A stretch of 64,000 nt of DNA. Source: an uncultured Gemmatimonadaceae bacterium (GTDB lineage Bacteria > Gemmatimonadota > Gemmatimonadetes > Gemmatimonadales > Gemmatimonadaceae). Below the pieces are notes generated by a model, which saw nothing but the letters and a program-made list of their open reading frames with translations, had not been told where the DNA came from and searched no databases. The stretch lies in contig CAWHHI010000009.1 of NCBI GenBank assembly GCA_963829055.1, positions 108,042 to 172,041 of the forward strand, read 5' to 3'. Each line of letters opens with the position of its first letter. The first letter of the stretch is position 1. Below, in pieces: positions 642-62,238 of this stretch. Both the position numbers and the translations under genes were made by a program.

Positions 642-1809
642 TCACGCGGCGTCTTCTCCCAGGCCGAGCTCTCGCAGAATCTCCGCCGAGTGCTGGCCGA
701 GCAGCGGGGGTGGGCGCCTGACGCGCGGCGGCGTCTCGCTCATCTTGAGCGGAAAGCCTAACGTGCGCACTCGGCCGGCAACCGGATGGTCGATTTCCTC
801 GATCATGTGACGGGCGTGCGTGTGTGGATCCGCGAAGACCTGGGCGAAGTCGTGAATCGGCCCCGCTGGTACGCCTACGGCGAGCATGCGCTCGACCCAG
901 TCCGCGGTGGTACGCGCGGCCAGTGCGACCTCGATCTCGCGCACGAGCGCGGGGCGGTTCGCCATTCTCGCGGCGTTCGTCGCGAAGCGCGAATCGGACG
1001 TGAGCGTCCTCGCGATCCAGCGTCGCGCAGAGTCGCTCCCACTGCAGCGACGTGAGCGCGGCGAGCGTGATGTACCCATCGCTCGTGCGGAACGCCTGGT
1101 ACGGTGCGCTCAACCGGTGGGCCGAGCCCATCGCGTGAGGCGCACTGCCCGTCGCCCAGTACTCGGTCGTTTCCCAGACGGACATCGCGAGCGCCGACTC
1201 GAACAGCGACGTGTCAATGTGCTGCCCGCGACCGGTTTTACCACGCGCGATGAGCGCCGCGAGTATGCCGTTCGTGGCAATGAGACCGACCGACAAGTCC
1301 GCGATCGGTACGCCGCATTTCACGGGCGTCCCGCCGGGCTCACCAGTCACGCTCATGATGCCGCTCATGCCCTGCGCGATGAGGTCGAAGCCGGGTCGGT
1401 CCGCGTACGGGCCCGTCTGCCCGAAGCCGGATATGCTCGCGTAGATGAGACGCGGATTGAGCGCCGACACGGTTTCGTAGTCCACGCCGAGCCGCTTCGT
1501 GACGCCCGGGCGGAAGCTCTCGACGAGCACGTCCGCCGTGCGAACGAGCGCCGTCATCACCGCACGGTCGGAGTCCCGTGTGAGGTCGAGGACGATGCTG
1601 CGCTTGTTTCGATTGAGCGCGAAGAACGGAGCGTTGTCGTTGCCAGGCATCCGCAACTGCGCGCCGCCCATCGATCGCGAGAGATCGCCGGTGGGCGGTT
1701 CGACCTTGATGACGTCGGCGCCAAGGTCGCCGAGCTGCATGGTGCAGAACGGGCCGCCCATGACCTGCGTGAGGTCGACGACGCGCACGCCGTCGAGAGG
1801 GAGAGTCAT
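642..1809 (-). pseudogene. CoA-transferase family III (CaiB/BaiF-like), frame broken once near 1005 in this assembly
   Basis: Hand translation from ATG 1809..1807 gives MTLPLDGVRVVDLTQVMGGPFCTMQLGDLGADVIKVEPP...GFGQTGPYADRPGFDLIAQGMSGIMS. The C-terminal third is ORF 642..1079 (SRFATNAARMANRPALVREIE...HPVAGRVRTLGFPLKMSETP). The two parts join only with a 1-nt offset. Confidence 0.75.
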
Positions 1810-1834
1810 GCGGGCAATTCTAGCTCGCCGCCGA

Positions 1835-3592
1835 TCATTTCACGACGCCCGCATCGAACACGACCTTCCCGTTGAAGATCGTCATCAGACACTTCGCGTC
1901 CTTGATCTCGGCCGTCGGCACCGAGTAGAAGTCGCGATCCCACACCGCGAGGTCCGCGTACTTCCCGACCTCGATCGACCCGATCTTCTTCTCCAGGAAC
2001 ATCTGCCGCGCCGCCCAGATCGTCACCGCGCGCAAGCGCCGTGCGCACGTCCACCGACTCTGCGCGGCCGAACGGGTCCTTGCCGTAGACGCCTAACAAC
2101 GGCTCGCGCGCGATCGCGGCCCAGATGCCATAGCGCGCCGGGAACGGCGTGACGCCGATAGTCGGAGCCGTTGCGCCCACGTCATGCCCTTCGCGCGGAA
2201 CGTCTTGAATGGATTCAGGCGAAGCGAACGCTTCGGCCCGAAGTTGCCCGCGTACGTGTCGCCGAGCCACCAGGTGAACGTCGCGGATGGCTCGGGATAG
2301 CCGGCGTCGAAGTCGCGCTGCAGCCTCGCCATCATGTCGATCGCGTGATCCGTCGGAATGTTCGAGTGGATGATCGCGTGCCGGAGGCCCTTCTTCGGAT
2401 TCTCGCGCATCGCCTGATCGTACGTGTCCACGACCCAGTCGATGCCGCGGTCGCCGATCGAGTGCACCGCGACGTGCATTCCGGCATCGTGGTACATGCG
2501 GATGAGCATGCGGATCGTGTCGGGATTCGACGCCGGATATCCGCGATTGCCCGGATCGGTGCCGCGATAGTCCTTGTTCCAGTCGTCGTAGAGCCACGCC
2601 GTGCGCGCGCCGCCCGAGCCGTCGATGTAGAGCTTCACGCCGCCGGCGATCACGTGATCGTCGCCAGTGCGTCTCGTACGGCTTCGTCATCGCCGCACGC
2701 TCGGCGATCAGCTCGCTTCGCGCTCATCGACCGAGCGCCCGCCTGACCAGAGCGCGAACACGCGCACGTTGAGCGCGCTGTCCTGCTCGACCTTCTTGTA
2801 GATGTCCCACGTCTGCGACGAGATGCCCGGGATCCTTGAGGCCGGTCATCCCCTCGGCGTTGAACGCCTTCACGAAGTCGCGGATCCCCGCTTCGGTCTC
2901 CGCGGCCGAGCGCTGGCGGGACGAGGCGACGCACGAGACCCGCCGCGCCTTCGCGCAACAGGCCGGTCGGCGTGCCGTCGGCGTTGCGGTCGATCGTGCC
3001 GTTCGGCGGATCCCGCGTGTCCTTCGTGACGCCGGCGAGGCTAAGCGCGACGCTGTTCGCGACGACGTAGTGGCCGGTGGTCTGCGTGAGCACGACCGGG
3101 TTGTCGGGCGAGACGGCGTCGAGGTCCTTCGCCGTGATGACACGTCGCTCGGTGAGCTTGCCCTCGTCCCAGCCACGTCCCTGAATCCACGCGCCCTTGG
3201 CGCGACGTGGCCACCTTCGCGCGAATCGCGGCGGCGACATCCGCGATGCTCTTGACGTTCGGATAGCTCAGGTCGATCACGTACAGGCGGTCGGCGCCGC
3301 CGCCGGAGAAGTGCGCGTGCGCATCGAGCAATCCGGGCGTGACGGCGCGGCCGCCGAGGTCGATGCGTCGTGCGTTAGGCGCGGCGGCGCGTTCGACTTC
3401 AGCCGTCGACCCGACAGCGACGATGCGTCCGCCAGCAATACCCACGGCCTGTGCGATCCGATCGTTCGTATCGACGGTCAGCACGCGACCGTTCACGAGG
3501 ATGAGATCGGCGCGTGGCTGCTGCGCGCTCAGCGGTGCCGCGATCGCGATGCACGTCGCGAGAACGAGCGAATGCTGCTTCATGGACTTCAT
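1835..3592 (-). pseudogene. secreted amidohydrolase (Amidohydro_3-like metal-dependent hydrolase), at least 6 frame disruptions
   Basis: Collinear pieces lie in different frames: 3041..3670 (MKSMKQHSLVLATCIAIAAPLSAQ signal, TPGLLDAHAHF = H-x-H), 2650..3240, 2724..3176, 2093..2653 (MYHDAGMHVAVHSIGDRG), part of 1806..2690, and 1835..2035 (GKYADLAVWDRD C-terminal motif). Confidence 0.7.
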
Positions 3593-3811: not shown

Positions 3812-5088
3812 ATGCTGCGCGCAGCTCAGTTACGCCTTGCCCTCGCCGCCATCGCAGCTGTCGCCCTGGCCGCCTGCCAGGAAGACCAGACTCCGACGGC
3901 CGTGACCGTCCCCGCACAACCCTCGGCAAGCGCGCAGTCGTCGCAGGGCAACGGGCCACCCACGGCCGACGAACTCGATCGGCAGGTGCCCGGTTTCGGT
4001 GGCTTCTTCCTCGATCGCGCGGGAGAGCCGACCGTGTACCTCGACGCGTGGTGCGAGCAGGGCTCCGGCGGAGCGCGCGCTCGGTGCGTATCTCGCGGCG
4101 CGCGGCCTGTCGAACGCGGCGGTGCACGTGCTCGAGGCCCGGTACGGATGGCAGCAGCTCCAGCGCTGGCAGGACGCGGCGACCGACGGTGCCTTCGAGG
4201 TCCCCGGGACGGTGTTCGTGGACAACGACGAGACGAGCAACCGTGTTCGCATCGGCGTCGAGAACGTGAATGCGGTCGGACAGGTTCGGGCGGCGTTGGC
4301 TCGCCGCGGTCTGCCTGACGACGCGGTGATCATCGAGCGCGCCGACCCGATCGTGCAGGTGGCGTCGCTCCAGAACGTCGTCGACCGCCCGGTGCGCGCT
4401 GGCGTTCAGATCAATTTCCCCGGATTCCTCTGCTCGGTCGGGTTCAACGCGACGTCGGGCGACGTAGAAGTCGTTCATCACCGCGTCGCACTGCACGACC
4501 AAGCAGGGTGGTGTCGAGAGCACTCCGTATTGGCAGCCGCTCCAGTCGGTGAATGGCACGCAGATCGCGACGGAGGTTGCGGACCCGGTCTACTACGAAG
4601 GGCGCGGGCTGCCCGGGCGGCAAGACCTGTCGCTACAGCGACGCTTCGCGTGCGGCGTACAGCGAACGGCGCCAACCAGGCGCTCGGCCTGATCGCGAGG
4701 ACGAGCGGGCCTAACAACAACAGCCTCGAGATCACCGGCTCGTTCACGATCACGTCGGACGACTGCGCAGACACGATCGGCGGATGCCTGCCAGTTGGCG
4801 CGACGGTGAACAAGGTCGGGCGCACCACCGGATGGACCAGGGCACCATCACGAACACGTGCGTCAACACCGGCGTGCAGGGCAGCAGGATCGTCCAGCTC
4901 TGCCAGACGTTCGTGTCGGCCGGAGTGGGCGGGGGCGACAGCGGCTCGGACGTCTTCCAGATCACGGGCGATGCACGAGCGTGAAGCTCGCTGGGATTCT
5001 CTGGGGCGGGAGCTCGAGCGGGACTCAGTTCGTGTTCAGCCCGTTCGGCAACGTGACGAGAGAGCTCGGCGCGCTGACCACGCACTGA
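3812..5088 (+). pseudogene. secreted S1 serine protease (alpha-lytic / streptogrisin-like) with pro-region, at least 6 frame disruptions
   Basis: ATG 3812 follows GGAGGA, and the N-terminus has a lipobox-like signal MLRAAQLRLALAAIAAVALAAC. FLCSVGFNA, SFITASHCT (catalytic His, hand-translated frame), GGGDSGS (catalytic Ser) and ILWGGSSSG are found in different frames (ORFs 3704..4318, 3999..5120, 4784..4984, 4858..5088). Confidence 0.65.
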
Positions 5089-5107: not shown

Positions 5108-5486
5108 GACGTTCACCTAACGCTGGAGGCACCGGCCCGCGCCCGTTCGGGCGAGCCGGTGCCTCTCGTTTTAACGGTCACGAACACCGGCACCGCTGTC
5201 CGTGACGTTGCAGCTCCTCGGCCGGAAACCCACCGCCGACTTCCGCATCTCGGACGCAGACGGCCGCCCAATCTGGACTCGCCTTCGCGGCCAGACGATG
5301 CTCGGCGCGCTTCGCCTCTATCCGCTGGATGCAGGAAAGGCACTCGTATTCCGAGCGGTGTGGGATGGGCGTGACGACGGTGGAAGCCTGGCGCCGCCGG
5401 GCGAGTACCTGATCCGCGGCGTGCTACTGACTGACGACCCCGGAGGGCTGCCTTCCTCGCCCCTCCGGCTGCGCGTTGACGCCTAA
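5108..5486 (+). pseudogene. BsuPI-like proteinase-inhibitor domain fragment (no usable start, one frame offset near 5205)
   Basis: ORFs 5159..5374 and 5202..5486 give PLVLTVTNTGTAVRDV / ADFRISDADGRPIWTRL...GKALVFRAVWDGRDDGG..PGEYLIRG, which resembles the BsuPI inhibitor beta-sandwich. It lies directly after the protease gene. Confidence 0.4.
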
Positions 5487-5504
5487 CGCCTCCGGGATCG
5501 ACGC

Positions 5505-6557: not shown

Positions 6558-6734
6558 CGTTCTACTCCTCGCCAATGCTCACTGTGCGTCGACCGCGACC
6601 GCCGCGGGTTGCACGGGAGGATGGTACGCGCGCGTGCCACGCGGGCGTATCTGGCGACTGGCCGATCTTGTCCCTGACGATGGTTGGGTCGGGCGCGTCG
6701 CGACGCGCCATGCGTCGCCTAACGAACCGGAATG

Positions 6735-7984
6735 CTACCTGGGCCGACTATCCGGACGGGGGCGGAGCCGCGCGTAGGCGAAGAGGGGATTCACCGCGGC
6801 TTTGCCTTGCACGAGCGCCGCGACGTGCTCGCCGAGCGCCGGCCCCATCTTGAAACCGTGCCCGGAGCCGCCGCCGACGAGCCACACGTTCTCGAGTTGC
6901 GGATGCTTGTCGATGAGGTAGTTGCCGTCGCTCGACGCCTCGTACTGACACACCCGCGCTTCCACGAGCGGCGCGTTGGCGAGAGCAGGGAAGCGCTCCG
7001 CCACGATTTTCTTCGCGCGCGCGAGGCCGTCGGCGCTCGGGACACGGTCGATCGTCGTGGGGTCGACTTCGTCGCCCGCTGTATCATCCGCGACCTTGAG
7101 GCCGCGTCGCTCGAAGCTCGGGACGCCGTAGACGAGCCGCTCGCCGATGTGCACCCATACCGGTTGCGTCGGGGCGTCGAATCGGCGTGTCACCCGGCGG
7201 CGTGCCGAAGAAGAAGACCTCCTGTCGAGTCGCGACGATCCGGCGGCCGACGACGTCGGGGAACACCTGCCCCATCCACGGGCCGCACGCGAAGACGAAG
7301 CGGTCGGCGTCGAGAGCGCTGCCGGCCGGCAAGCCCGATGTTCGTTAGGCGACTGCCGGCCGTCCTTCCAGGGCGGACCATCGCCTGCCTGTACGTTCCG
7401 CCTTCGCGCACGAACGTCTCGCGCACGAGCTCGCACGCAACGCGCGCTGTGAGAAACCCGCCGTCCGGTTCGTGGAACACGCTGCGCACGTTCTGAAAGC
7501 CCATCTGCGGGAAGCGGCGCCGAGCCTCGGCCAGTGGCAGCTCTTCGAGGCCCAGCCCGACCGCCTTCATGGGCGCGATCGACTTCCGCACGTAACTGTC
7601 GTCGGTTGCGCACATCCAGACGGCGCCGGTGCGGTAGTAGATCTGGCGCTTCCACCGCTGCTCGGCCTCACGCCACAGCTTCATGGCGCGAGCCGCCATC
7701 TGGCTGTAGTCGGGGACGCCGTTATACACCCCGCGGATGACGCGAGTCTCGCCGCCTGACGACGCGCGCGAGTTGCCGGCACCCCACGCGTCCACGAGCG
7801 TTACGCGCATGCCTGCGCGGAGAAGCGAGAGCGCGGTCCAACCTCCGAATGCGCCAGCACCCACGACGATGACGTGCTCCTGCGATGGCCGGAGCGCGCC
7901 GAATCGCAGCACGAACGGCGCCGCGACAGCGGAGGCGACGAACGAGCGCCGCGATACGTGGCGAGATGCAGGCGTTGTTGTCAT
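6735..7984 (-). pseudogene. FAD-dependent oxidoreductase (DAO / sarcosine-oxidase-like) with Tat-like signal, 2 frame disruptions (~7330, ~7195)
   Basis: ORF 7190..7996 contains SRRSFVASAVAAPF and VIVVGAGAFGGWTA (GxGxxG). The protein continues in ORFs 7084..7332 ([18 protein letters not shown]) and 6735..7655 (VWLVGGGSGHGFKMGPALGE). Confidence 0.7.
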
Positions 7985-10937: not shown

Positions 10938-12167
10938 TCAATGACGGACCGCCGGACGCTTAGTGGCGCGCCTAACGGCGGTCTCCTTGCGAGCTCGTCC
11001 GTTCTGGCGTGCGTGCTTGGCAGGCTCGACCAGTTTCCAGAACTGCCCCTCGCCAATCACCTTCACGGCGTGGCCGCGCGCGGCCAACCGGCGGATCTCC
11101 ATGAGCTTGAGACCTCCAACCGTGCCGGCGACCTGCAACGCGTTAGGTCTGCCGCGCACCAGCACGTCCGTCGCCGAGCCAGGCTTGGACTGCACGACCG
11201 CGCCCGCCTTCCTCGCGGCGGCGATGGCTTCGCTCCTCGGACGGCTCAGGAATCCCGTGAAGGACACCCGCTTCCCGACCAGGCTTCCGACGCGACCGAG
11301 ATGAAGCTCCGTCGGCCGTTGCCGAAGGGCCGCAATGAGCTCGCCCGCGGCTTCGTAGCGCTTTCCGCGTACGCCAAGGCATCGGTGGATGACTTCCTTG
11401 AGGTGGTCGCTGCACGGCAGGCCGCGCACGTCACGACTGCGCATCGGGCTCGTGATGTCGCCACGCAGCAGCATCGCGGCGATCTGCCCTATCTGATAGA
11501 TGTCGTCGCGCTGCTGCCAGCGGCGGACCTTCCCCCACGCGATCTCCGTCGGCGCATTGAAGACGTTGAACGCGTCAGCGGTGACGCCACGTCGGCTGAG
11601 CTGATGTGTCGCGATACCGAAGTCGCCGAGCTTCAACTGCTCGTCACCGCAGACGAAGACGTTGAACGGCGTGAGGTCGCGGTGCATCGCCTGCCCACGA
11701 TGCACGACGTCGAGCGCGCGCAGGATGGCCGCGATCTCACGGCGCACGAACCGCTCGGACTGCGCGCCCTTGCGAGCGAGCCAGGCGCCGAGGTCCCCGT
11801 GTTCCGCGTATTCCATCGCGAGGCAATACCGCATGCGCGACCCATCGACTTCGGCGAACCGGTCATACACGCGAAGCGCGCGGGATTCTCGGCCGAGCAG
11901 CTCGGCGAAATACGCCTCGCGAAGCCACGCCGTGAGGCGATCGCTGATCTTGATGCAGACCTGCTCGGGGAGGTCGTCGCGCGGTGTGGGCGTGGCGAGA
12001 TACACCTCGCCAAACCCTCCCTTGCCGATCAGCCGGTCGAGTCGGTACGTGCGACCGCTCTCGTAGCTATAGGCTGTCGGGGCCGTCCCCGGGGAGGAAA
12101 GCGCGGCCGGCGCGGCCGCCCCATTGTCCTTGCTGTTCTGCGGAGAAAGTGGGCGGTGCGTTGCCAT
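10938..12167 (-). CDS. Ser/Thr protein kinase with C-terminal BRCT domain
   Basis: Intact ORF. Kinase motifs are GKGGFGEV, VCIK, MHRDLTPFN and GDFGIA. The C-terminus LVGKRVSFTGFLSRPRSEAIAAARKAGAVVQSKPGSATDVLVRG...LKLMEIRRLAARGHAVKVIGEGQFWKLV looks like the LigA-type BRCT fold. Confidence 0.8.
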   Translation of the reverse strand: MATHRPLSPQNSKDNGAAAPAALSSPGTAPTAYSYESGRTYRLDRLIGKGGFGEVYLATPTPRDDLPEQVCIKISDRLTAWLREAYFAELLGRESRALRVYDRFAEVDGSRMRYCLAMEYAEHGDLGAWLARKGAQSERFVRREIAAILRALDVVHRGQAMHRDLTPFNVFVCGDEQLKLGDFGIATHQLSRRGVTADAFNVFNAPTEIAWGKVRRWQQRDDIYQIGQIAAMLLRGDITSPMRSRDVRGLPCSDHLKEVIHRCLGVRGKRYEAAGELIAALRQRPTELHLGRVGSLVGKRVSFTGFLSRPRSEAIAAARKAGAVVQSKPGSATDVLVRGRPNALQVAGTVGGLKLMEIRRLAARGHAVKVIGEGQFWKLVEPAKHARQNGRARKETAVRRATKRPAVRH

Positions 12168-12318
12168 TCGCCATCACGTGAGAGAGCGGGTAATCGACTG
12201 ACGTTACCACGAGCGTCAAGCCGCGACGATGCGCGTTCGTTCCCGAGCGGAGACACTATGATTGGCGCCCGCAGCCTCAGGGCATAAGTTGGCGTAGCGG
12301 CGGCCCAGGGAAGCGCGG

Positions 12319-14982: not shown

Positions 14983-15187
14983 CTCGCCCGCACGCTGCGC
15001 CACTCGGCGTGCCGTTCCGGCCGCCTCACCCACCGTTTCGAAACGACTTCTAGAGTCGAGAGGACGAGGTCGGTAACTTCGCCGGGCGCTTCCCAATAGC
15101 ACCCCAACCGACGCCATCGAGAACTGGATGACGCCCGTGAGCCGTACGACATTCTCGCCGCACCACCTCGTGCCCGAAGGCCGCGCC

Positions 15188-16149: not shown

Positions 16150-16299
16150 TGGACGGAATACTGACCAGCGTGGACACCAATGGCAAGTAGATCAACCGAG
16201 CCGAGAGCGCTTGATTGAGGCAACGCGCCGGGAATCGCGAGGATCACCGACACCGGCGCGATACGTGACCCGCAACGGGTCTCCCAGCAGGAGAAGTCT

Positions 16300-17194: not shown

Positions 17195-17287
17195 GTCGAC
17201 CGGGTGACATCGACCACGAGAGACGGCGATGAGCAGGCACATTGCCGGCAAGAGCCTGACCGCAACGCGTTGAAGGGAGATCCGACC

Positions 17288-18444
<1,157 letters not shown>

Positions 18445-18448
<4 letters not shown>

Positions 18449-34067: not shown

Positions 34068-34077
34068 CCGAACCGCG

Positions 34078-45330: not shown

Positions 45331-45365
45331 GGCGTCGCGTGCGATCGGCCGAACGCAGGCCATGC

Positions 45366-55606: not shown

Positions 55607-56637
55607 ATGTCAGGCCGGGTGTCGTTTCCGCTCGGCGGGATGCTGTTGCTGTGCGTGATGGCTGCGTGCGTTGCCGATGAGCCTACGGCGTCGCGGCCGA
55701 CTCCGGGTGTGAGCCTCGGGAAAGCGCCGCCACCGTCTGTCACCGTCACGTCCACCGACCCGACGTACGCCTTTCAGGGCGACTCGGTGCTGACGGTGCA
55801 CGTGAAGGGAATCGGGATTTACCGCGGGCGCACATACGTCGTGGCCGGTCAACGGCGATACGACGCACGTGCACGAGATCAGCACGACGTACGTGAGCCC
55901 GACGGAGGTCGTCTCGACGATCAAGGTGGACCTCAACGCGCCGACGGCGCTGTACGATGTCGTGGTGACGCTCGTTGGTGGGAAGAAGGGAGTGGGCGCG
56001 GAGCTGTTTGCCGTCAAGTCAGTGAACGAGCGCCAGCAGTTGCCGATCCCGATCGCGGTGACCGTGGACGACGCGGGCGCGCTCGGAGCCGTACAGGATT
56101 CGGAGCGACGGATTGGGTGAGTATGTCGACGGACAGCCGGGATGACGGCGTTTATCGACCAATTCGGGAATCTGCAGATCTCGCCTAACAACGGCCAAGC
56201 GACGACGCCGGCACAGCGCAGCCTGGTCTTCGACTTCAGCGTGCCGGCCGACCCGCTCAACACGTATCGCCCCGATGTGTCGGGTCAGACCAACTTCAAG
56301 ATCCTGACGAACAATGTCGGGCTACCCGAGGATTCAGGACCTCGGGGTGAATGGCATTCCGTCTTCGGGGTGCTATCGCCTGACGTTCTCGTTCCGGAAC
56401 GTTACGACGCACTATCCAGCGTCGATTTCAACACGAGCATCAACGCGCAGGCTGCTTTCGTGCTCATCACGCGAACCAGCGCTTCGACGTGGACTGTCGT
56501 GCCAGGATGCGTCGTGCGGCGCGCATCCGACCTGGGGCGCGTTCAGGAGCCAGGATCTTCACGAGCAAGAACGCGCCGGTCGTAGCCCCGTGGGAACTAC
56601 AGCCTGCCGTTCTCGATACGGATTCGCGAAGTTGTAG
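55607..56637 (+). pseudogene. hypothetical lipoprotein (Ig/TIG-like beta-rich), at least 4 frame disruptions; 3' end uncertain
   Basis: ORF 55607..56188 begins with the lipobox LLLCVMAAC. Collinear beta-rich pieces lie in ORFs 55869..56120, 56142..56585 and 56314..56637. Confidence 0.4.
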
Positions 56638-56699
56638 CGGCTCGCGGTCGAAGCACCTGGGAAACGCGCGGCACCGAAAGACGGTGTCGCGCGTTCTTC

Positions 56700-57661
56700 G
56701 TTAGGCGCCGGCGGCTGAGGATCCGTGATTCCCGCCTTCACGAGCGCGAGGCCGAACGCCCATTGCCCGTCCGCCGTCGCAATGCTCAGCGCGCCCGCCC
56801 GCATTTGCTGGTAGATCTCACAGGAGCGAGAGCGTCGAGTCGAGCGTCTCCGCTCCGGTTGCACCGCCGTGCCCGCCCTGTCGCGCCAGGTGCATGAATG
56901 CCGCGCCGCAGAGCACTCCCACCACACGCCGGTCGTACACGAACCGCGCGGGAAGCGCAGCGAACGAATTGCCAGCGTATGCCGAGAGCAGCTCGACGGC
57001 AGGTTGCTTCATCCATGCGGAGGAACAGCGAAGCGGCCGCGAGATCGTAGTACGGATCGTTAGGCCCCGCGGTATCCCAGTCGAGCAGCACGAGATGCTC
57101 GCCGTCGTACACGAGGTTCGTCGGATTGACGTCGTTGTGGCTCAGCACCGGCGCGCGGTCGCTCGGCGTCGGGTCCTCCTCGAGCACGCGTCGCACGGCG
57201 TCGCTGAAGAACGCAGGCACGGCGAAGCCCGCCAGCGGTCCGTGCCAGATAGTCGCGAGAAACTCTCGCGGGTCCAGCGCATCCGCGTCGAGCGGCAACG
57301 GGATGTCGTGAATGCGGCGCACCGTCTGGCCAAGCAGCGCGATGGCCGCGTCGTGCGTGCGTGGGTCCCAGTAGTACGCCGGAAACGATCGGTCCGCGAC
57401 GAACGCGCTCAGCACGGCGCGCCGATCCTCGTCGACGTGGATGATGCGCGGCGCCACGCCCGCGTCCGCGGCGAGTCGCTGGATGTGAAGCTTGCGACTC
57501 CATGCCGCGAGTGGTTCACCCTCGCGCGCGACCTTCATCACGAACGTCTGTCCGCTGGCGTCAACGCGATACACGCCCGCGCCGGAGAGTCCCGCGGCAA
57601 TCTTCGTGATCGTGGTGGTGTCGCCGCGGAGTTCGGCGGGCAGGCAGGCTTCGAGGGTCAC
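56700..57661 (-). pseudogene. APH/choline-kinase-fold phosphotransferase, 2 frame disruptions; 3' end uncertain
   Basis: ORF 56786..57661 contains GLSGAGVYRV, VLSHNDVNPTNLVYDGEHLVLLDWDTAG (Brenner motif and DxD). The C-terminal continuations lie in ORFs 56818..57012 and 56559..56927. Confidence 0.65.
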
Positions 57662-57783
57662 GATTGACTCTGGCGCATGGTTGCGGTCAGCGGGCGTGGG
57701 TGCCTCATCCGTCGGAGGCAGACCTAGCTCGCCCGCGTTAGGACGAGGAGCGGTTTCAGGGCGTGCGCCGGGCTAGCGAAGAG

Positions 57784-58239: not shown

Positions 58240-58275
58240 ACTGCTCCTTCCTATGGCCTCCTTCCTGAGGCCTCG

Positions 58276-59161
58276 TTAGGCCTCGTTGCCGATTGCCAGC
58301 GGATCGACATCGAGCGTGCCGTGACTCACCGGCCAGACCTCGCCCCTAACGAGAAGATTCCCATCACCATCCTGGACGACCGTGAGCTTGCTTGGCCGTC
58401 CGGCGAACCGCCCCTGCGCAATCTCGATCGGAACGCCTGCCTCAGCGAGACCGCGTGCTACCAGATACGCCGCGGCGGGACCGGCGGCGCTGCCCGTCGC
58501 GACGTCTTCCACGAGCCCGAGGTTGTCCCACGTTCTCATCTCACGACCATCGACGGCGAGAACCAGTGGAAACTTTGCGCCTAACGTTTCGAGCTGCGAT
58601 TCGAAATCGGTCCCGCGGATTTTCGCTCTCCCCAACGCCGCCGGCGAGAGAGGGACGATCAGATACGGTAAGCCAGTGGAGATGACCTGGGCGTCCATTC
58701 CACTGGCCACATCGCTTTCGTCGAGCCCGAGCCGCGACAGGATCGGCGCCAACGCGCGGCTCGAAATGGGAGCCCCAACGACCGGCTTCCCCTGATTCAT
58801 CTCGCACACGTAATGCGTGCCCACCTTCGTCGTCGTGACCGCAAGGTCGCCGTGCGGAACCGAGATCACCCACGAGCAGAACTTCTTCACCGGGGCCTGA
58901 GTGCGGTGCAGTACCGCCGCTGCTCCGAGCACAGGGTGCCCCGCGAACGGCAACTCTTCCTCCACCGTGAAGATCCGCGCCTTCGCTCCCATAGCCGAGA
59001 TGCTCGAGAGGAATATGGATTCGAATTGCTTGGTCTCCTGCGTCAGCCGTTGCATGACTGACGCCGGCCAACGCTCCGTGTTCAGGAACACGGTCAGTCC
59101 GTTTCCGGTGAGCGGGCCTGTCGCGAACACATTCGACGTGGAACAGCGTCGGAGATGGCAT
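58276..59161 (-). pseudogene. PhzF-family isomerase/epimerase, one frame offset ~59130 near the N-terminus
   Basis: ORF 58276..59130 contains FATGPLTGNGLTVF, FAGHPVLGAAAVL and ATGSAAGPAAAYL. The first 10 codons (MPSPTLFHVE) lie in the frame of ORF 58541..59161. Confidence 0.75.
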
Positions 59162-59659: not shown

Positions 59660-59895
59660 GGCTCCCTCCTGTTGATTCGTGGCCACGAACGCCCGCAAAA
59701 CGCGGGTGAAACAGCATGTGATTTCTCGCTGGACGCGGCAAGGGACACGCGCCCCGGGCGGCCTGAGCCGCGCCAACCGGAACCGCCCGCGTCCGCCGTG
59801 ATGTGGCGCAGGAGTGCCCGAGATGGAGCCGTGACCGAGCGTGGCCACGAGCGATGCGCCCGCGCCGGCGGCCAATACCGGGATGGTGATCATTG

Positions 59896-62238
59896 CTACC
59901 CCTTCGGACGCAGCAGCTCGCGGAACGACGGCTGCCCACCGAGCAGTGCAAGGTCAATGTCGGTGTGCAGGTCGATGCCATAGCAATGGCCTCGCGCGAA
60001 TGCGCCGCGGAGCGCGGAGATCGCCTGATCCGAGTCGCCGAGGATGGCGAGCACCCGGGCACTGCACACTAACTGGAGCCCGAACCGGAACCGCCCCTTT
60101 TTCGACTGCAGCGTCTGCAGCGTGCCCCTCGCCGTCACGTCGTCGCCGAGGCGGGCGGCGATCGTACCCGTTAGGCCGATGATCTCGAGGTCCTCCGGCA
60201 ACTCGGCGGCGAGCTCGCGCGCCACCCTCGCGGCATTGGTCCACTGGCCGGCTTCGCAGTAGGCATGTGCGAGGGCGTGGCGATCACGGGCGCCGGGACG
60301 CCCGCCTGGTCGCTGCTGCTGGTCGGCGTACCATGCGATCGCTCGCTGCGCCAACGCGATCGCTTCGGCCGCGTGACCATGCGCGCGCAGTTCCCGGGTC
60401 GCATCGAGCATGACGTCCCCAGCGTCCGCGAATCGATCCGGTGGAAACGCGCACGCCTCGTCGATGCAGCGACTCACGGCCTCGAGGTTCCCGACGGCCG
60501 CGTAGGCGCGGGTCTCGTACAGCACCGCGCTGATTGCTTCCGGGTGATGCGCGCGCCCACGCTGCGCGGCCTCGAGCTCGCGATCGTGCTCGCCCAGCAT
60601 GTGATAGGCTTCGGTCAGCCGACGCCAGTGCGGAGTCCAGGAGGGAATCCACCCCTGGCCGGGGTCGAGCCGCGTTAGGGCTTCGACCGCCGCCTGCGGA
60701 TGATTGCAGAAGAGCGCCTGCCGGCCGAGTTGCGAGAGCACCTCCGAGTTGGGCACCTGCGCCGCCGCGAGCCGCACGATTCTGAGCGCCGCGCCTTGCT
60801 GGCCGTCGAGACACGCCGTGTAGTACTCGCACGCGAGCTTCTCCAATGTCGAGAGGTTCCCTCCACGGGAACGCGCGGTCAGCTCGGTCAGGATCGCCTC
60901 CGCCTGCTCCCATTCGCCGAGGTTGCAGCTCGCCTGCATCGCCCACAGCGCCGCGAACGTGAAGCCTTCGCGGGCGCGTGCGGCGCGGAGCAGGTGCGGA
61001 ATTGCCGTGCGGAAGTCGCCGCGGAGATGGAGCTCGACGCCTAACGCCAGCTCGAGGTGCGCATCGACGTCCGGCGCCTGCGCGACGGCGTCAGCCAGCG
61101 ACGCGAATCGCGGATCGAAGCGCCCTGCCAGCGCGCCGCAGACGCGCCGGCGCAGCTCGTCGGCCGCGTCCCACGGCTGCAGGCGCGGCGCGGCCACGTC
61201 GCCCACGGTGTCGAGCACGCGGCCGCCGGGGTCGCTGACCTTCGCCTGGAAGCACCACGAGTCCCCGCGGAGGAAGTATGAACCGGTAACGACGAAGCCA
61301 GCGTTTGGCAGCGTGGCGCCCAACCCGCTCGCGTGGTCCGTCGTCACGACGGCGACCGTCCGACTCCGGACGAGCCCCTCAGCGATGGCGTCGCACACCA
61401 GGCGCCCGACGTAGTCCGACGACGGATCGCCGCCGAGGTTCACCAGCGGCGCGATGGTCACGCGCGGTGGATCCGGCGCGGCGGCGACCTCACTGGCAGC
61501 GTGATGAACGCCTGGGCGGGCCCGCGTGCGGATCGCCTCGATCAGCGCTTTCGTATCGCTCGCGGGCTCATCCCCCGTCGCGCGCTCGAGACGCTGCGCG
61601 AAGGCAGTGTAGGCCTCCAGCGCGGCCGCCGTGTCGCCCACGCGGTCCAGCAGCGTGACCAGCTGACGCAGTCCCGCCTCGTCGTCGATGCCTAACGACG
61701 TAGCCCAGCGGGCGCTCTCGACTGCGCCCGCCGCGTCGCCTGCGCGCTCGCGTCGGTCGGCGAGCGCCCAGGCCGCCCGCGTAGCGCGTCGGCGAAGGAA
61801 CACGCGCATGTCCTCGAGCCACCGATCGAACTCCGGCGCGCCCTCGAGGGCGAATCCGGGAAGCAGGTCGCCGCCATAGAGCGCCATCGCCTCGTCGAGC
61901 GCGCCGCGCGAGAGCGCCGCCTCGAACGCACGGGCGTCGCACCACAGGCGAGATTCGTCCGCAGCCAGCATGTCCGTGCCGCGCGACAGCACGACATCCG
62001 CGCCGAGCGCCCGCCGCAGCTGGTGTACCGCCTGACGCAACGCATTGCGAGCGCCCGACTCGGTAAGCTCAGGCCAGAAGAGCGGAAGCAGGAGGTCGCG
62101 CCGCTGGAAGCCGGTCGTACCCGTCATCGCCAGGTAGGCGAGTAGCGCGAGTCGCTTGGGCTGTACGAGGACAGCCGTGACTTCGCACCCGTGGGGATCG
62201 CGCAGGTCCATCTGGCCGAGCACGCGCAGACGGAACAT
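59896..62238 (-). CDS. winged-helix + BTAD (SARP/AfsR-like) transcriptional regulator with large TPR-like C-terminal region
   Basis: Intact 780-aa ORF. The N-terminus is MFRLRVLGQMDLRD..VQPKRLALLAYLA...ARNALRQAVHQLRRALG, followed by a BTAD-like segment (DARAFEAAL...ALYGGDLLPGF...FDRWLE). Confidence 0.8.
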   Translation of the reverse strand: MFRLRVLGQMDLRDPHGCEVTAVLVQPKRLALLAYLAMTGTTGFQRRDLLLPLFWPELTESGARNALRQAVHQLRRALGADVVLSRGTDMLAADESRLWCDARAFEAALSRGALDEAMALYGGDLLPGFALEGAPEFDRWLEDMRVFLRRRATRAAWALADRRERAGDAAGAVESARWATSLGIDDEAGLRQLVTLLDRVGDTAAALEAYTAFAQRLERATGDEPASDTKALIEAIRTRARPGVHHAASEVAAAPDPPRVTIAPLVNLGGDPSSDYVGRLVCDAIAEGLVRSRTVAVVTTDHASGLGATLPNAGFVVTGSYFLRGDSWCFQAKVSDPGGRVLDTVGDVAAPRLQPWDAADELRRRVCGALAGRFDPRFASLADAVAQAPDVDAHLELALGVELHLRGDFRTAIPHLLRAARAREGFTFAALWAMQASCNLGEWEQAEAILTELTARSRGGNLSTLEKLACEYYTACLDGQQGAALRIVRLAAAQVPNSEVLSQLGRQALFCNHPQAAVEALTRLDPGQGWIPSWTPHWRRLTEAYHMLGEHDRELEAAQRGRAHHPEAISAVLYETRAYAAVGNLEAVSRCIDEACAFPPDRFADAGDVMLDATRELRAHGHAAEAIALAQRAIAWYADQQQRPGGRPGARDRHALAHAYCEAGQWTNAARVARELAAELPEDLEIIGLTGTIAARLGDDVTARGTLQTLQSKKGRFRFGLQLVCSARVLAILGDSDQAISALRGAFARGHCYGIDLHTDIDLALLGGQPSFRELLRPKG

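What the first reader, a model, noticed from the sequence alone, without database searches (positions are those of the whole stretch)
756..61697. The octamer is kept against codon bias: sense-strand GTTAGG is almost always read TTA-GGN (Leu-Gly)
For every copy in a gene whose frame I could fix from the ORF track, I read the codons. When GTTAGG is on the sense strand, 22 of 26 copies are NNG|TTA|GGN = Leu-Gly (756, 2091, 8232, 9736, 19597, 21537, 26812, 27745, 35454, 38007, 39686, 40211, 42421, 48947, 49133, 53132, 53337, 53577, 55479, 58579, 61039, 61690). The other 4 are GTT|AGG Val-Arg (10970, 29606, 47481, 58344). When CCTAAC is on the sense strand, 13 copies are CCT|AAC Pro-Asn and 12 are CTA|ACG Leu-Thr. 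TTA, CTA, AGG, GTT and CCT are codons that a high-GC genome normally avoids. In the long ORFs I scanned by eye (12319..14982, 23641..26751, 36671..39556) I saw no in-frame TTA outside the motif. Ordinary Leu-Gly pairs there are CTC/CTG-GGC, for example ACG CTC GGC for QTLGNP in 23641..26751. Two copies encode the lipobox Leu-Gly of the SusD-like lipoproteins (TLGC at 26812, TLGAC at 39686). The word therefore looks maintained at the DNA level and placed where the protein tolerates it, as is known for USS in Haemophilus coding regions.
Basis: seen in the sequence. Interest (0 to 1): 0.65.

Follow-up and report, generated by a model that had tools for sequence, protein, structure and literature searches.

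The report
Hyper-abundant genome word CGTTAGGC in Gemmatimonadota
A soil bacterium of the phylum Gemmatimonadota carries the 8-letter word CGTTAGGC about once per kilobase. It is written into genes with otherwise shunned codons while the protein stays the same, as in the DNA "uptake tags" of Haemophilus and Neisseria, and a cultured relative has it too, so its function can be tested.

Summary
GTTAGG/CCTAAC occurs 67 times. The strict octamer CGTTAGGC occurs 43 times against about 1.2 expected, and 27 times inside genes against 0.9 after synonymous-codon shuffling. I also find 3-4 Val-Arg, 14 Pro-Asn, 14 Leu-Thr and 12 non-coding copies, and several that supply a stop codon. Of in-frame TTA codons, 69% lie inside the word.

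Word-poor relatives keep the same amino acids at these sites but use common codons (CTC/CTG-GGC, CTG-ACG, CCG-AAC). The word is therefore maintained at the DNA level.

It has no conserved flanks and no strand polarity. It is twofold or more enriched in non-coding DNA and absent from one 8-kb stretch. It is lineage-specific: present in 9 of 80 related loci and almost gone in sister lineages at about 80% nucleotide identity.

Cultured Gemmatirosa kalamazoonensis carries it at 0.66 per kb, and there 95% of TTA codons lie inside it. Phage contigs carry it as well. The published methylome shows no methylation motif matching it.

My best guess (about 0.35) is a USS/DUS-like self-DNA uptake tag. The rivals are a HIP1-like role, biased repair, and a non-polar Chi-like signal.

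The parts
310..317 (+). CGTTAGGG; antisense to a minus-strand gene, read GCC-CTA-ACG (Ala-Leu-Thr)
756..763 (-). CGTTAGGC; sense, ACG-TTA-GGC (Thr-Leu-Gly) in the frameshifted CoA-transferase gene
2091..2098 (-). TGTTAGGC; sense, TTG-TTA-GGC (Leu-Leu-Gly) in the frameshifted amidohydrolase; reads as a TAG stop in the shifted ORF
3373..3380 (+). CGTTAGGC; antisense, CCT-AAC (Pro-Asn)
4709..4716 (-). TGTTAGGC; antisense, CCT-AAC (weak coding call)
5115..5122 (-). CGTTAGGT; antisense, CTA-ACG (weak coding call)
5481..5488 (-). CGTTAGGC; non-coding by the frame track; supplies the TAA stop of ORF 5202-5486
6717..6724 (-). CGTTAGGC; non-coding
7343..7350 (+). CGTTAGGC; antisense, CGC-CTA-ACG (Arg-Leu-Thr)
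8232..8239 (-). CGTTAGGT; sense, ACG-TTA-GGT (Thr-Leu-Gly) at the frameshifted 3' end of the TonB-dependent receptor gene
8748..8755 (+). TGTTAGGT; antisense, CCT-AAC (Pro-Asn)
9736..9743 (-). CGTTAGGT; sense, ACG-TTA-GGT (Thr-Leu-Gly)
9861..9868 (+). CGTTAGGC; antisense, CCT-AAC (Pro-Asn)
10525..10532 (+). CGTTAGGT; antisense, GAC-CTA-ACG (Asp-Leu-Thr)
10970..10977 (-). CGTTAGGC; GTT-AGG (Val-Arg) by the ORF call 10938-12167; non-coding by the frame track
11141..11148 (+). CGTTAGGT; antisense, CCT-AAC (Pro-Asn)
11200..19100 (.). 8-kb stretch without any copy (GC 70% against 67% elsewhere; no TTAG/CTAA at all); candidate recently acquired DNA
   Evidence: largest gap 7967 nt, P about 0.012
19108..19115 (+). 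CGTTAGGC; antisense, CCT-AAC (weak call, near a gene end)
19330..19337 (+). CGTTAGGG; non-coding
19597..19604 (-). CGTTAGGA; sense, TCG-TTA-GGA (Ser-Leu-Gly); L083 has TCG-CTC-GGC
20994..21001 (-). CGTTAGGC; non-coding, between the amidohydrolase and DPP-IV genes; shared with L085 and L082
21537..21544 (-). AGTTAGGC; sense, CAG-TTA-GGC (Gln-Leu-Gly); seven relatives have CTC/CTG/TTG for this Leu
22821..22828 (+). CGTTAGGC; antisense, CGC-CTA-ACG (Arg-Leu-Thr); word-poor relatives keep Arg-Leu-Thr with CTG/CTC
23059..23066 (+). CGTTAGGC; antisense, CGC-CTA-ACG (Arg-Leu-Thr); shared with L085, L082 and L087
24240..24247 (-). TGTTAGGC; antisense, CAG-CCT-AAC (Gln-Pro-Asn); L086 and L081 have CCG
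25298..25305 (-). CGTTAGGC; antisense, AGC-CTA-ACG (Ser-Leu-Thr)
26812..26819 (+). CGTTAGGC; sense, ACG-TTA-GGC-TGC, the lipobox Thr-Leu-Gly-Cys of a SusD-like lipoprotein; L081 has ACG-TTG-GGC-TGT
27745..27752 (+). GGTTAGGC; sense, TGG-TTA-GGC (Trp-Leu-Gly)
28091..28098 (+). CGTTAGGT; non-coding
28457..28464 (+). CGTTAGGC; antisense, CAG-CCT-AAC (Gln-Pro-Asn); L083 and L084 have CCC
29606..29613 (-). CGTTAGGC; sense, GTT-AGG (Val-Arg)
30770..30777 (-). CGTTAGGC; supplies the TAG stop of gene 30772-32772; the only copy kept in word-poor L083
31321..31328 (+). CGTTAGGT; antisense, AAC-CTA-ACG (Asn-Leu-Thr)
31626..31633 (+). CGTTAGGC; antisense, ACG-CCT-AAC (Thr-Pro-Asn)
33364..33371 (+). CGTTAGGC; antisense, TGC-CTA-ACG (Cys-Leu-Thr)
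34076..34083 (+). CGTTAGGC; supplies the TAA stop of the NUDIX ORF 34078-34512
35454..35461 (-). CGTTAGGC; sense, GCG-TTA-GGC (Ala-Leu-Gly)
36195..36202 (+). CGTTAGGC; non-coding
36563..36570 (-). CGTTAGGC; non-coding
38007..38014 (+). CGTTAGGC; sense, ACG-TTA-GGC (Thr-Leu-Gly)
39686..39693 (+). CGTTAGGC; sense, ACG-TTA-GGC, within the lipobox Thr-Leu-Gly-Ala-Cys of the SusD-family lipoprotein
40211..40218 (+). CGTTAGGC; sense, GCG-TTA-GGC (Ala-Leu-Gly)
40993..41000 (-). CGTTAGGC; non-coding
42421..42428 (+). CGTTAGGC; sense, GCG-TTA-GGC (Ala-Leu-Gly)
44662..44669 (-). CGTTAGGC; antisense, CGG-CCT-AAC (Arg-Pro-Asn)
45364..45371 (-). CGTTAGGC; supplies the TAG stop of ORF 45366-46259
47481..47488 (-). 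CGTTAGGC; sense, GTT-AGG (Val-Arg)
48947..48954 (-). CGTTAGGC; sense, ACG-TTA-GGC (Thr-Leu-Gly)
49133..49140 (-). CGTTAGGT; sense, GCG-TTA-GGT (Ala-Leu-Gly)
50173..50180 (+). CGTTAGGC; antisense, GCG-CCT-AAC (Ala-Pro-Asn)
53132..53139 (+). CGTTAGGG; sense, ACG-TTA-GGG (Thr-Leu-Gly)
53337..53344 (+). CGTTAGGC; sense, GCG-TTA-GGC (Ala-Leu-Gly)
53577..53584 (+). CGTTAGGC; sense, GCG-TTA-GGC (Ala-Leu-Gly)
55479..55486 (+). CGTTAGGA; sense, TCG-TTA-GGA (Ser-Leu-Gly)
56183..56190 (-). TGTTAGGC; antisense, TCG-CCT-AAC (Ser-Pro-Asn)
56699..56706 (+). CGTTAGGC; antisense, GCG-CCT-AAC (Ala-Pro-Asn)
57058..57065 (+). CGTTAGGC; antisense, GGG-CCT-AAC (Gly-Pro-Asn)
57736..57743 (+). CGTTAGGA; non-coding
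58274..58281 (+). CGTTAGGC; supplies the TAA stop of gene 58276-59130
58344..58351 (-). CGTTAGGG; sense, GTT-AGG (Val-Arg)
58579..58586 (-). CGTTAGGC; sense, ACG-TTA-GGC (Thr-Leu-Gly)
60169..60176 (+). CGTTAGGC; antisense, GGC-CTA-ACG (Gly-Leu-Thr)
60673..60680 (+). CGTTAGGG; antisense, GCC-CTA-ACG (Ala-Leu-Thr)
61039..61046 (-). CGTTAGGC; sense, GCG-TTA-GGC (Ala-Leu-Gly)
61690..61697 (-). CGTTAGGC; sense, TCG-TTA-GGC (Ser-Leu-Gly)
63046..63053 (+). CGTTAGGC; antisense, GGC-CTA-ACG (Gly-Leu-Thr)
63879..63886 (+). CGTTAGGC; non-coding

Best explanation
**Shown.** CGTTAGGC is a lineage-specific, hyper-abundant genomic word, at about 0.7 perfect copies and 1 hexamer-core copy per kb. A force acting on duplex DNA creates and keeps it, not a force acting on protein or RNA. 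It arises through GC-to-AT changes at sites where the change is silent or nearly silent. The frames used are the cheapest ones: NCG-TTA-GGC, NNG-CCT-AAC-G and NGC-CTA-ACG each need one rare codon, and the two-rare-codon frame GTT-AGG is avoided. The word is over-represented in non-coding DNA and at stop codons, and it decays in sister lineages.

**Inferred (my committed guess).** The word is a self-DNA tag read by a sequence-specific DNA-binding component of a natural-transformation uptake machine, working like USS in Pasteurellaceae and DUS in Neisseriaceae. Under this model, fragments carrying the word are taken up preferentially and recombine into the chromosome. New copies then spread by molecular drive wherever they cost little. 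Replicons and temperate phages that live long in the host acquire the word, recently imported DNA lacks it, and lineages that lose the receptor lose the word through the genome's normal GC pressure.

The stated confidence applies to the uptake-tag mechanism. That the word is a real feature maintained at the DNA level I hold at above 0.95.
For: **Abundance.** 43 octamers against about 1.2 expected. Inside genes 27 against 0.9 after synonymous shuffling, the sole 8-mer outlier.

**DNA level, not peptide.** Four reading frames, non-coding DNA and stop codons are all used. Amino acids are kept with common codons in word-poor orthologues.

**Features shared with USS/DUS.**
- Density about 1 per kb.
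- Not a palindrome.
- Both orientations equally: window 38:29; Gemmatirosa plasmid 1 131:141 in seven 50-kb samples around the replicon, with no switch where GC skew changes sign; plasmid 2 20:20.
- Non-coding enrichment: 18% of copies in 9% of the window, and 22% in 8.5% of the Gemmatirosa sample.
- Steep specificity in the core and softer flanks: C at 60 of 67 and 49 of 67 flank positions.
- Copies at orthologous positions are shared among word-rich relatives: 5/5 at 98% nucleotide identity, 6/8 at 85%, 2/3 at 76%.
- One 8-kb stretch of atypical GC lacks the word. USS are likewise sparser in accessory DNA (PMC6776037).
- Phage contigs carry the word at 8-20 times expectation. These include one with tape-measure and tail genes, and one with terminase and DNA polymerase. 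Temperate Pasteurellaceae phages likewise accumulate USS (PMC6776037).

**Against a methylation-linked origin.** The SMRT methylome of G. kalamazoonensis lists only RGATCY, ATGCAC and CCAGN7TCA (PMC3974934).
Against: - No uptake assay exists, and I found no report of natural competence in Gemmatimonadota. I could not check for pilus, ComEA, ComEC or DprA genes in these genomes.
- The window holds no DNA-uptake, restriction-modification or recombination gene.
- The phylogenetic distribution is patchier than for USS or DUS. Sister lineages at about 80% nucleotide identity have 0.1-0.4 copies per kb, genomes at about 70% have none, and a Gemmatimonas MAG has none, yet the identical word is present in Gemmatirosa and several soil MAGs.
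- There are no USS-like AT-rich flanks.
- There are no DUS-like inverted-repeat pairs and no preference for convergent intergenic regions.
- The even spacing seen in the window (CV 0.68) is not reproduced in Gemmatirosa (CV 0.91).
- One word-rich phage contig encodes its own DNA polymerase. If that phage is strictly lytic, it fits a drive that needs chromosomal recombination poorly.
Confidence: 0.35

Rival explanations
1. HIP1-like word. The octamer is the binding site of an abundant chromosomal protein or another chromosome-level signal (nucleoid structure, domain organisation). Each copy would be kept by selection, as has been argued for the cyanobacterial octamer GCGATCGC, whose function is still unknown.
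For: - It is an 8-mer of the same order of over-representation: 16-36 fold here, against 15-300 fold for HIP1 (PMC5861425).
- It is conserved at orthologous positions among word-rich relatives above the background for random hexamers: 6/8 against 40%, and 2/3 against 18%.
- It is present on the chromosome-like window, on megaplasmids and on phages alike.
- Its presence or absence varies among related genera, as HIP1 abundance does among cyanobacteria (PMC4390886 abstract).
- The window's spacing is more even than random.
Against: - It is not a palindrome, so it is not a HIP by definition.
- No m6A or m4C methyltransferase motif overlaps it in the Gemmatirosa methylome, whereas HIP1 is tied to methyltransferases for CGATCG and GATC.
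- Even spacing is not reproduced in Gemmatirosa.
- No sequence-specific nucleoid protein with thousands of exact 8-bp sites is known (my own knowledge).
- The conservation excess is only marginally significant (P = 0.05 and 0.09).
Confidence: 0.22
2. Neutral replenishment by a sequence-biased mutation, repair or gene-conversion process. This would be a very-short-patch-like enzyme that converts near-cognate sites to CGTTAGGC on any DNA replicating in these cells. The word itself would have no function.
For: - The word appears on every replicon sampled and on phage contigs, including one with its own polymerase.
- It is gained and lost quickly between close lineages, as expected if one accessory enzyme is gained or lost.
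- Every inferred creating change is GC to AT, and often a single step from GTCAGG, GTTGGG, GTTCGG or GCTAGG.
- Spacing in Gemmatirosa is near random.
Against: - Known biased repair (Vsr at Dcm sites) shifts word frequencies by less than about twofold, not 16-36 fold (my own knowledge).
- Some copies needed two substitutions (CTC to TTA at 21538 and 19598).
- No methylation motif overlaps the word, though m5C is not excluded.
- A repair enzyme with an asymmetric 8-bp specificity that drives GC to AT is without precedent.
Confidence: 0.15
3. Chi-like self signal. The octamer would modulate a RecBCD, AddAB or AdnAB-type helicase-nuclease, or another nuclease-based defence. DNA carrying it would be spared or repaired, and DNA lacking it would be degraded.
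For: - It is an 8-mer, like E. coli Chi.
- It is over-represented and lineage-specific.
- It is enriched in phages that must survive inside the host.
- Every 50-kb sample of the Gemmatirosa replicons carries 28-50 copies.
Against: - There is no strand polarity relative to replication, neither in the window nor in any of seven samples around a 1.1-Mb replicon whose GC skew changes sign. All characterised Chi sites are co-oriented with replication (established knowledge; see PMC8022716).
- Its density and fold-enrichment are several times higher than for E. coli Chi.
Confidence: 0.1
4. A translation-level or peptide-level signal. Examples are a rare TTA codon used as a regulatory pause (as with bldA-dependent TTA codons in Streptomyces), selection for Leu-Gly, or off-frame 'ambush' stop codons.
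For: - 69% of TTA codons in the window and 95% in the Gemmatirosa sample lie in the word.
- Two copies encode lipobox Leu-Gly.
- The word carries TAG on one strand and TAA on the other.
Against: - 28 of 67 copies are antisense to the gene, 12 are non-coding and several are stop codons.
- There is no sense/antisense bias (25:28).
- TTA is always flanked by NCG and GGC, which a codon-level signal does not require.
- Ordinary Leu-Gly is CTC-GGC in 163 of 185 cases, and relatives keep Leu-Gly without TTA.
Confidence: 0.02
5. The core of a dispersed repeat (REP, MITE or insertion-sequence end), or a sequencing or assembly artefact.
For: The window's assembly contains many frameshifts.
Against: - There is no conservation outside the 8 bases in 191 aligned copies.
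- The word is present at the same positions in an Illumina contig that is 98.4% identical.
- It is present in other MEGAHIT contigs and in a finished PacBio genome.
Confidence: 0.01

Closest known systems
Uptake signal sequences of Pasteurellaceae (USS, 9-bp core) and DNA uptake sequences of Neisseriaceae (DUS, 10-12 bp)
   Same: It is a short non-palindromic word at about one copy per kb, with equal numbers in both orientations. It occurs in coding and non-coding DNA with a non-coding excess. Coding copies sit in the frames and positions that cost least. It is shared by related species with turnover of individual copies, is sparse in atypical (probably acquired) DNA, and is accumulated by phages of the host.
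   Different: - The phylum differs, and no competence is known there.
- It is a strict 8-mer without the AT-rich flanks of USS.
- There are no inverted-repeat terminator pairs as with DUS.
- The core is AT-rich in a 67-73% GC genome, so it absorbs most TTA codons.
- The distribution is much patchier: the word is almost lost in sister lineages at about 80% nucleotide identity.
- Uptake bias is untested.
HIP1 (GCGATCGC) and HIP1-like words of cyanobacteria
   Same: It is a hyper-abundant octamer with comparable fold over-representation. It lies inside genes in several frames, is conserved at orthologous sites, is lineage-specific with low-abundance exceptions, and has no known function.
   Different: HIP1 is a palindrome and is linked to methyltransferases that recognise its core. 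This word is asymmetric, and the Gemmatirosa methylome shows no m6A or m4C motif overlapping it.
Chi sites (for example GCTGGTGG in E. coli) and other polar words (KOPS)
   Same: It is an asymmetric, lineage-specific, over-represented 8-mer.
   Different: Chi and KOPS are co-oriented with replication, and this word is not. It is also denser and far more over-represented.
bldA-dependent TTA codons of Streptomyces
   Same: TTA is an extremely rare Leu codon in a high-GC genome, and its occurrences are non-random.
   Different: Here TTA is a by-product of a DNA word that also occurs antisense, in other frames and outside genes.

Membership tests
DNA uptake sequences (USS/DUS) | DNA carrying the word is taken up or transforms preferentially | not testable with these tools
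   This needs uptake or transformation competition assays. G. kalamazoonensis KBS708 is cultured and carries the word.
DNA uptake sequences (USS/DUS) | The genome encodes a transformation machine (type IV pilus, ComEA, ComEC, DprA) with a specificity component | not tested
   No such gene lies in the window. No literature was found.
DNA uptake sequences (USS/DUS) | Hundreds to thousands of copies, about 1 per kb, far above expectation | tested here: met
   43 in 64 kb against 1.2 expected. 264 in 400 kb of Gemmatirosa.
DNA uptake sequences (USS/DUS) | Both orientations equally frequent, with no replication polarity | tested here: met
   38:29 in the window. 131:141 and 20:20 in Gemmatirosa.
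DNA uptake sequences (USS/DUS) | Coding copies placed in tolerated frames or peptides, with an excess in non-coding DNA | tested here: met
DNA uptake sequences (USS/DUS) | Extended motif: AT-rich flanking segments (USS) or inverted pairs acting as terminators (DUS) | tested here: not met
   No information outside the 8 bases. Close pairs are 10 direct against 2 inverted, with no excess in convergent intergenic regions.
DNA uptake sequences (USS/DUS) | The word, or dialects of it, is shared throughout the family | tested here: inconclusive
   The same word is in 9 of 80 related loci, in Gemmatirosa and in the window's clade. It is absent or decayed in close sisters and in a Gemmatimonas MAG.
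HIP (highly iterated palindromes) | Palindromic octamer | tested here: not met
   The reverse complement of CGTTAGGC is GCCTAACG.
HIP (highly iterated palindromes) | Cognate DNA methyltransferases recognise the core | tested here: not met
   The published SMRT methylome of KBS708 lists only RGATCY, ATGCAC and CCAGN7TCA (PMC3974934). m5C was not assessable by that method.
HIP (highly iterated palindromes) | 15-300 fold over-representation and conservation at orthologous sites | tested here: met
   16-36 fold. 6/8 and 2/3 conserved against 40% and 18% background, which is marginally significant.
Chi / KOPS polar words | Strong co-orientation with the replication direction | tested here: not met
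REP / MITE dispersed repeats | Conserved sequence or hairpin extending beyond the core, mostly intergenic | tested here: not met
   No flank conservation. About 80% of copies lie in coding sequence.
Regulatory rare TTA codons (bldA type) | The signal acts only in the sense frame of mRNAs | tested here: not met
   28 antisense and 12 non-coding copies.

The most novel reading that the evidence does not exclude
CGTTAGGC is a species-recognition tag for DNA uptake in Gemmatimonadota. That would make it the first uptake sequence outside Proteobacteria. Its rapid gain and loss between sister lineages, together with unrelated over-represented words in other Gemmatimonadota loci (for example AATCCTGC in L050), would then point to a widespread, fast-switching system of self-DNA tags in uncultivated soil bacteria. 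This is testable in the cultured strain G. kalamazoonensis KBS708.
Probability: 0.25. Interest if true: 0.85.

Novelty: new variant of a known kind. Interest (0 to 1): 0.65.

Why it matters
Sequence-specific DNA uptake tags are established in only two proteobacterial families, and the only other famous hyper-abundant octamer (HIP1) still has no known function. A third, unrelated example would show that such words are a more general feature of bacterial genomes. This one lies in an abundant but poorly cultivated soil phylum and is visible in MAGs, megaplasmids and phages. A finished, cultured genome (G. kalamazoonensis KBS708) with published SMRT methylome data (PMC3974934) makes it directly testable.

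Practical uses follow.
- Word density can flag recently acquired DNA and assign phages or plasmids to hosts in soil metagenomes.
- It explains the odd codon usage: nearly all TTA codons lie inside the word.
- It warns gene finders and codon-bias analyses about a non-translational constraint.
- The contrast between word-rich and word-poor sister lineages offers a natural experiment for finding the protein that reads or writes the word.

Tried and rejected
- **Plain ORF-based frames.** The cause was frameshifts in the assembly, not reader error. I replaced them with a frameshift-tolerant frame track.
- **The genome-contig scan with a DPP-IV alignment.** It returned only relatives at 40% identity or less, probably paralogues in part. 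The source genome and its close relatives were not among the 80 loci. Close relatives were fetched through exact-protein look-ups instead.
- **Even spacing.** It is significant in the window once the 8-kb gap is removed but not in Gemmatirosa. I dropped it as a general property.
- **Replication polarity (Chi/KOPS).** Some 20-kb loci looked skewed (L058 5:21, L020 6:1). Sampling a whole 1.1-Mb replicon showed none.
- **Dispersed-repeat idea.** Rejected because the flanks are not conserved.
- **Methylation link.** Checked in the KBS708 methylome paper, which lists no matching motif.
- **Literature.** No paper contains the octamer. None links uptake sequences or competence with Gemmatimonadota.
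- **Accessions.** CP007129 (unversioned) failed to retrieve. CP007127 and CP007131, tried for the 21-kb phage-like element of KBS708, are not in the held collections.
- **Other over-represented words in other loci.** At least some have conserved flanks and are probably longer repeats (L004, L036, L077). I do not count them as the same phenomenon.

Full report

The window is 67.4% G+C. GTTAGG/CCTAAC occurs 67 times, 38 on the + strand and 29 on the - strand. Aligning the copies gives a strict octamer, C-GTTAGG-C, with C at 60 of 67 positions on the 5' side and 49 of 67 on the 3' side. All 67 TTAGG in the window are preceded by G, and 71 of 76 TTAG are GTTAG.

The perfect octamer occurs 43 times. 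Markov models of order 0-3 expect 0.9-2.7. A hundred dinucleotide-preserving shuffles give 1.19 +/- 1.08, with a maximum of 4. Inside genes there are 27 perfect copies. After permuting synonymous codons within each gene the count is 0.90 +/- 0.95, with a maximum of 6 in 1000. That null keeps every protein and each gene's codon usage, and even keeps the TTA codons that the word itself contributes. Against it the octamer is the only outlier among all 8-mers, with z about 25.

**2. The frames.**

The reason is that the assembly carries frameshifts.
- The DPP-IV gene has an extra T at 22876 compared with a 98.4%-identical Illumina contig.
- The amidohydrolase at 1835-3598 is spread over at least five frame pieces.
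- The ORF 4-1809 fuses a CoA-transferase and a beta-lactamase-like gene.

It also gives 3 GTT-AGG (a fourth, 10971, by the ORF call), 14 CCT-AAC, 14 CTA-ACN, 12 non-coding and 2 read as stop codons. ORF ends show that the word supplies the stop codon (TAG or TAA) of about five genes. The third frame in each orientation is impossible because it contains TAG or TAA.

**3. Codon usage.**

- TTA is 32 of 1764 Leu codons, and 22 of those (69%) lie in the word. Outside it TTA is 0.6% of Leu.
- CTA: 13 of 32 lie in the word.
- CCT: 13 of 61 lie in the word.
- Of 185 Leu-Gly dipeptides, 22 are TTA-GGN, where about one is expected.
- Of 33 Pro-Asn dipeptides, 13 are CCT-AAC.

The frame preference has a simple explanation. 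NCG-TTA-GGC, NNG-CCT-AAC-G and NGC-CTA-ACG each contain one rare codon flanked by the genome's favourite codons. NNC-GTT-AGG-C contains two rare codons.

**4. Orthologue test.**

The DPP-IV gene has relatives at 99, 91, 90, 85, 85, 83, 81, 69 and 66% amino-acid identity. I fetched their contigs.

Word density in hexamer copies per kb:

| Sequence | Nucleotide identity to window | Copies per kb |
|---|---|---|
| window | - | 1.05 |
| L085 | 98% | 1.11 |
| L082 | 85% | 0.81 |
| L087 | 76% | 0.65 |
| L088 | about 80% | 0.37 |
| L086 | about 80% | 0.23 |
| L081 | about 79% | 0.20 |
| L083 | about 78% | 0.09 |
| L084 | about 69% | 0 |
| L089 | about 70% | 0 |

In a DPP-IV tree the rich sequences are not all each other's closest relatives.

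At the window's sites, word-poor relatives nearly always keep the amino acids with common codons.
- At 21538, Gln-Leu-Gly is CAG-CTC/CTG/TTG-GGN in seven relatives.
- At 22822, Arg-Leu-Thr is CGC/CGG/AGG-CTG/CTC-ACG/ACC in six relatives.
- At 24241 and 28458, Gln-Pro-Asn is CAG-CCG/CCC-AAC.
- At 26813, the lipobox is ACG-TTG-GGC-TGT.

The inferred changes that make the word are all GC to AT, and some sites needed two of them (CTC to TTA). Among word-rich relatives, copies are shared more often than random hexamers: 6/8 against 40%, and 2/3 against 18%. Between rich and poor relatives they are shared less often: 2/27 against about 27%, binomial P about 0.01.

**5. Anatomy and distribution.**

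- In 191 copies pooled from word-rich sequences there is no information outside the eight bases, apart from the codon periodicity. It is therefore not the core of a longer repeat.
- Copies are interspersed on both strands, and sense and antisense copies are about equal (25:28).
- Non-coding DNA is about 9% of the window but holds 18% of the copies.
- One stretch, 11.2-19.1 kb, has no copy and no TTAG or CTAA at all, at 70% G+C (P about 0.01).
- The window's genes are ordinary metabolic, transport and regulatory genes of Gemmatimonadota type: Ser/Thr kinases, an ADOP-type permease with PadR, SusC/SusD-like pairs, CHAT and BTAD. No DNA-uptake, restriction-modification or recombination gene is present.

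**6. Who else has it.**

Of 80 loci around DPP-IV homologues from GTDB species representatives, the octamer is strongly enriched in nine, all Gemmatimonadota. Densities are 0.22-1.1 per kb, for example 18 copies in 22 kb against 0.5 expected. It is absent from the other loci, including Longimicrobiales MAGs, a Gemmatimonas MAG, Acidobacteriota and Bacteroidota.

The cultured type strain Gemmatirosa kalamazoonensis KBS708 has it. In 400 kb sampled from its two megaplasmids there are 264 perfect copies, 0.66 per kb. The codon effect is even clearer there.
- 123 Leu-Gly, 60 Pro-Asn, 10 Leu-Thr, 9 Val-Arg, 60 non-coding (22% of copies in 8.5% of the sequence) and 10 as stop codons.
- 112 of 118 in-frame TTA codons (95%) lie inside the word.

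**7. Tests that bear on mechanism.**

(a) Polarity. Seven 50-kb samples around the 1.1-Mb plasmid give 131:141, and none is significantly skewed, although GC skew changes sign between the two halves. Plasmid 2 gives 20:20. This argues against a Chi-like or KOPS-like polar signal.

(b) Methylation. The published SMRT methylome of KBS708 reports three m6A motifs (RGATCY, ATGCAC, CCAGN7TCA) and nothing overlapping the octamer (PMC3974934). A HIP1-style link to an m6A or m4C methyltransferase is therefore unlikely. m5C is not excluded.

(c) Intergenic context. Density is similar in tandem, divergent and convergent spacers. Close pairs are mostly direct (10 against 2 inverted). There is no promoter-like or terminator-like placement and there are no DUS-like hairpins.

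(d) Phages. A scan of IMG/VR for two octamers within 30 bases returned mostly chance hits. Several high-GC contigs, however, carry many further copies.
- L132 has tape-measure and minor tail genes and 10 hexamer copies in 13.5 kb.
- L125 has large terminase and DNA polymerase genes and 9 copies in 10.4 kb.
- L100 has a minor tail gene and 7 copies in 12.3 kb.

After removing the two copies that triggered each hit, these contigs are still about 8-20 times above expectation. Temperate phages of Pasteurellaceae likewise accumulate the host's USS, while large lytic phages do not (PMC6776037).

(e) Spacing. It is more even than random in the window (CV 0.68 against 0.98, P = 0.001, after removing the 8-kb gap) but near random in Gemmatirosa (CV 0.91). 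I do not rely on it.

**8. Interpretation.**

Shown: the octamer is a real, lineage-specific, hyper-abundant word maintained on duplex DNA against codon bias. It sits where it is cheapest for the protein, and it is gained or lost between close lineages.

Inferred: what reads or writes it. The profile matches uptake sequences best. That profile is a short asymmetric word at about 1 per kb, with no polarity, a non-coding excess, frame economy, sharing among relatives with turnover, scarcity in a probable island, and accumulation in phages. I commit to that mechanism at about 0.35.

The rivals are a HIP1-like chromosomal function (0.22), neutral biased repair or gene conversion (0.15) and a non-polar Chi-like or defence-related self signal (0.10), with the remainder unknown. 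The main weaknesses of the uptake reading are these.
- There is no evidence for competence in the phylum.
- The distribution is very patchy.
- USS-like flanks and DUS-like inverted repeats are absent.

**9. Comparison with the known, and novelty.**

No paper in the held library contains the octamer. None connects uptake sequences or competence with Gemmatimonadota. A 2025 preprint still treats Pasteurellaceae and Neisseriaceae as the families with uptake-enhancing sequences (10.1101/2025.10.24.684340).

The phenomenon belongs to the known kind "hyper-abundant genomic words" (USS, DUS, HIP1). It fails the defining palindrome and methylase features of HIP, fails the polarity of Chi, and cannot yet be tested for the defining uptake bias of USS/DUS. 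I therefore rate it a new variant of a known kind. It has a cultured, finished-genome model in which the decisive experiment can be done.

**10. Caveats.**

- Gene frames come from my own codon-usage model, not a validated gene finder, and calls with small margins are marked as weak in the parts list.
- Some of the 80 GTDB loci are probably paralogous, so they sample genomes rather than orthologous positions.
- Taxon labels are those of the depositors.
- The viral contigs were selected for having a close pair of copies.
- Only the megaplasmids of KBS708 could be read, not its chromosome.

Noticed in passing
window 22876; 1835-3598; 1-1809; many same-strand frame switches, e.g. 15.1-19.2 kb, 41.1-43.7 kb, 51-52.5 kb, 55.7-57 kb: The assembly seems to carry many single-base indels. 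There is an extra T at 22876 in DPP-IV relative to a 98.4%-identical Illumina contig. The amidohydrolase lies in at least five frame pieces. A CoA-transferase and a beta-lactamase-like gene are fused into one open frame. This looks like long-read consensus error or genuine pseudogenes, and it misleads ORF-based frame calls.
   Followed up: partly
window 11200-19100: This 8-kb stretch has no copy of the word and no TTAG or CTAA at all, at 70% G+C against 67% elsewhere. It holds a Ser/Thr kinase with PD40 repeats, a LysR regulator, and aldo/keto reductase and flavodoxin genes. It may be recently acquired DNA.
   Followed up: partly
window 30770-30777, 45364-45371, 5481-5488, 34076-34083, 58274-58281: The word supplies the stop codon (TAG on one strand, TAA on the other) of about five genes. 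The copy at 30771 is the only one retained in the word-poor relative L083. In Gemmatirosa, 10 of 272 copies are in the stop frame.
   Followed up: partly
L091-L098 (Gemmatirosa kalamazoonensis KBS708 plasmids NZ_CP007129.1 and NZ_CP007130.1): The cultured type strain carries the same octamer at 0.66 per kb on both megaplasmids. There, 95% of in-frame TTA codons lie inside it. The genome paper does not mention the word.
   Followed up: yes
L132, L125, L100, L139, L110 (IMG/VR contigs): High-GC phage contigs with tape-measure, tail, terminase and DNA polymerase genes carry the word at roughly host density. Word density could serve to assign phages to word-rich Gemmatimonadota hosts.
   Followed up: partly
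L050 (Gemmatimonadales MAG), L036 (Acidobacteriota MAG), L004, L077, L019, L010: Other loci have their own over-represented words: AATCCTGC(C) 14 copies in 22 kb (L050), GAACCCCGTG 16-17 (L036), a TTCCGGCTTCCGG-like unit (L004) and ATCCTGTC (L077). Several have conserved flanks and are probably longer repeats, not short words.
   Followed up: partly
L031 and L032 (Gemmatimonadota MAGs): AGGGCGAG occurs 11 times in L031 and ACGACAAC occurs 10 times in L032, in each case all on one strand. This is the signature expected of polar words (KOPS- or Chi-like) or of a coding repeat.
   Followed up: no
L083 (word-poor sister lineage): TTGCCG/CGGCAA occurs 23 times in 11 kb (6.4 expected) and TTGCCGGC 7 times (0.7 expected). 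This may be a different word in the sister lineage, or a composition effect.
   Followed up: no
window 23641-28055 and 36731-40845: There are two SusC-like (TonB-dependent receptor with CarboxypepD_reg and Plug domains) and SusD-like lipoprotein pairs in a Gemmatimonadota genome. They sit next to peptidases (DPP-IV, M20) and amidohydrolases, which suggests peptide uptake loci.
   Followed up: no
L096 (NZ_CP007129.1 780-830 kb): This 50-kb sample has 92 TTAG/CTAA, of which only 57 lie in the word. The other samples have 31-45, almost all in the word. It probably contains an AT-richer insert.
   Followed up: no
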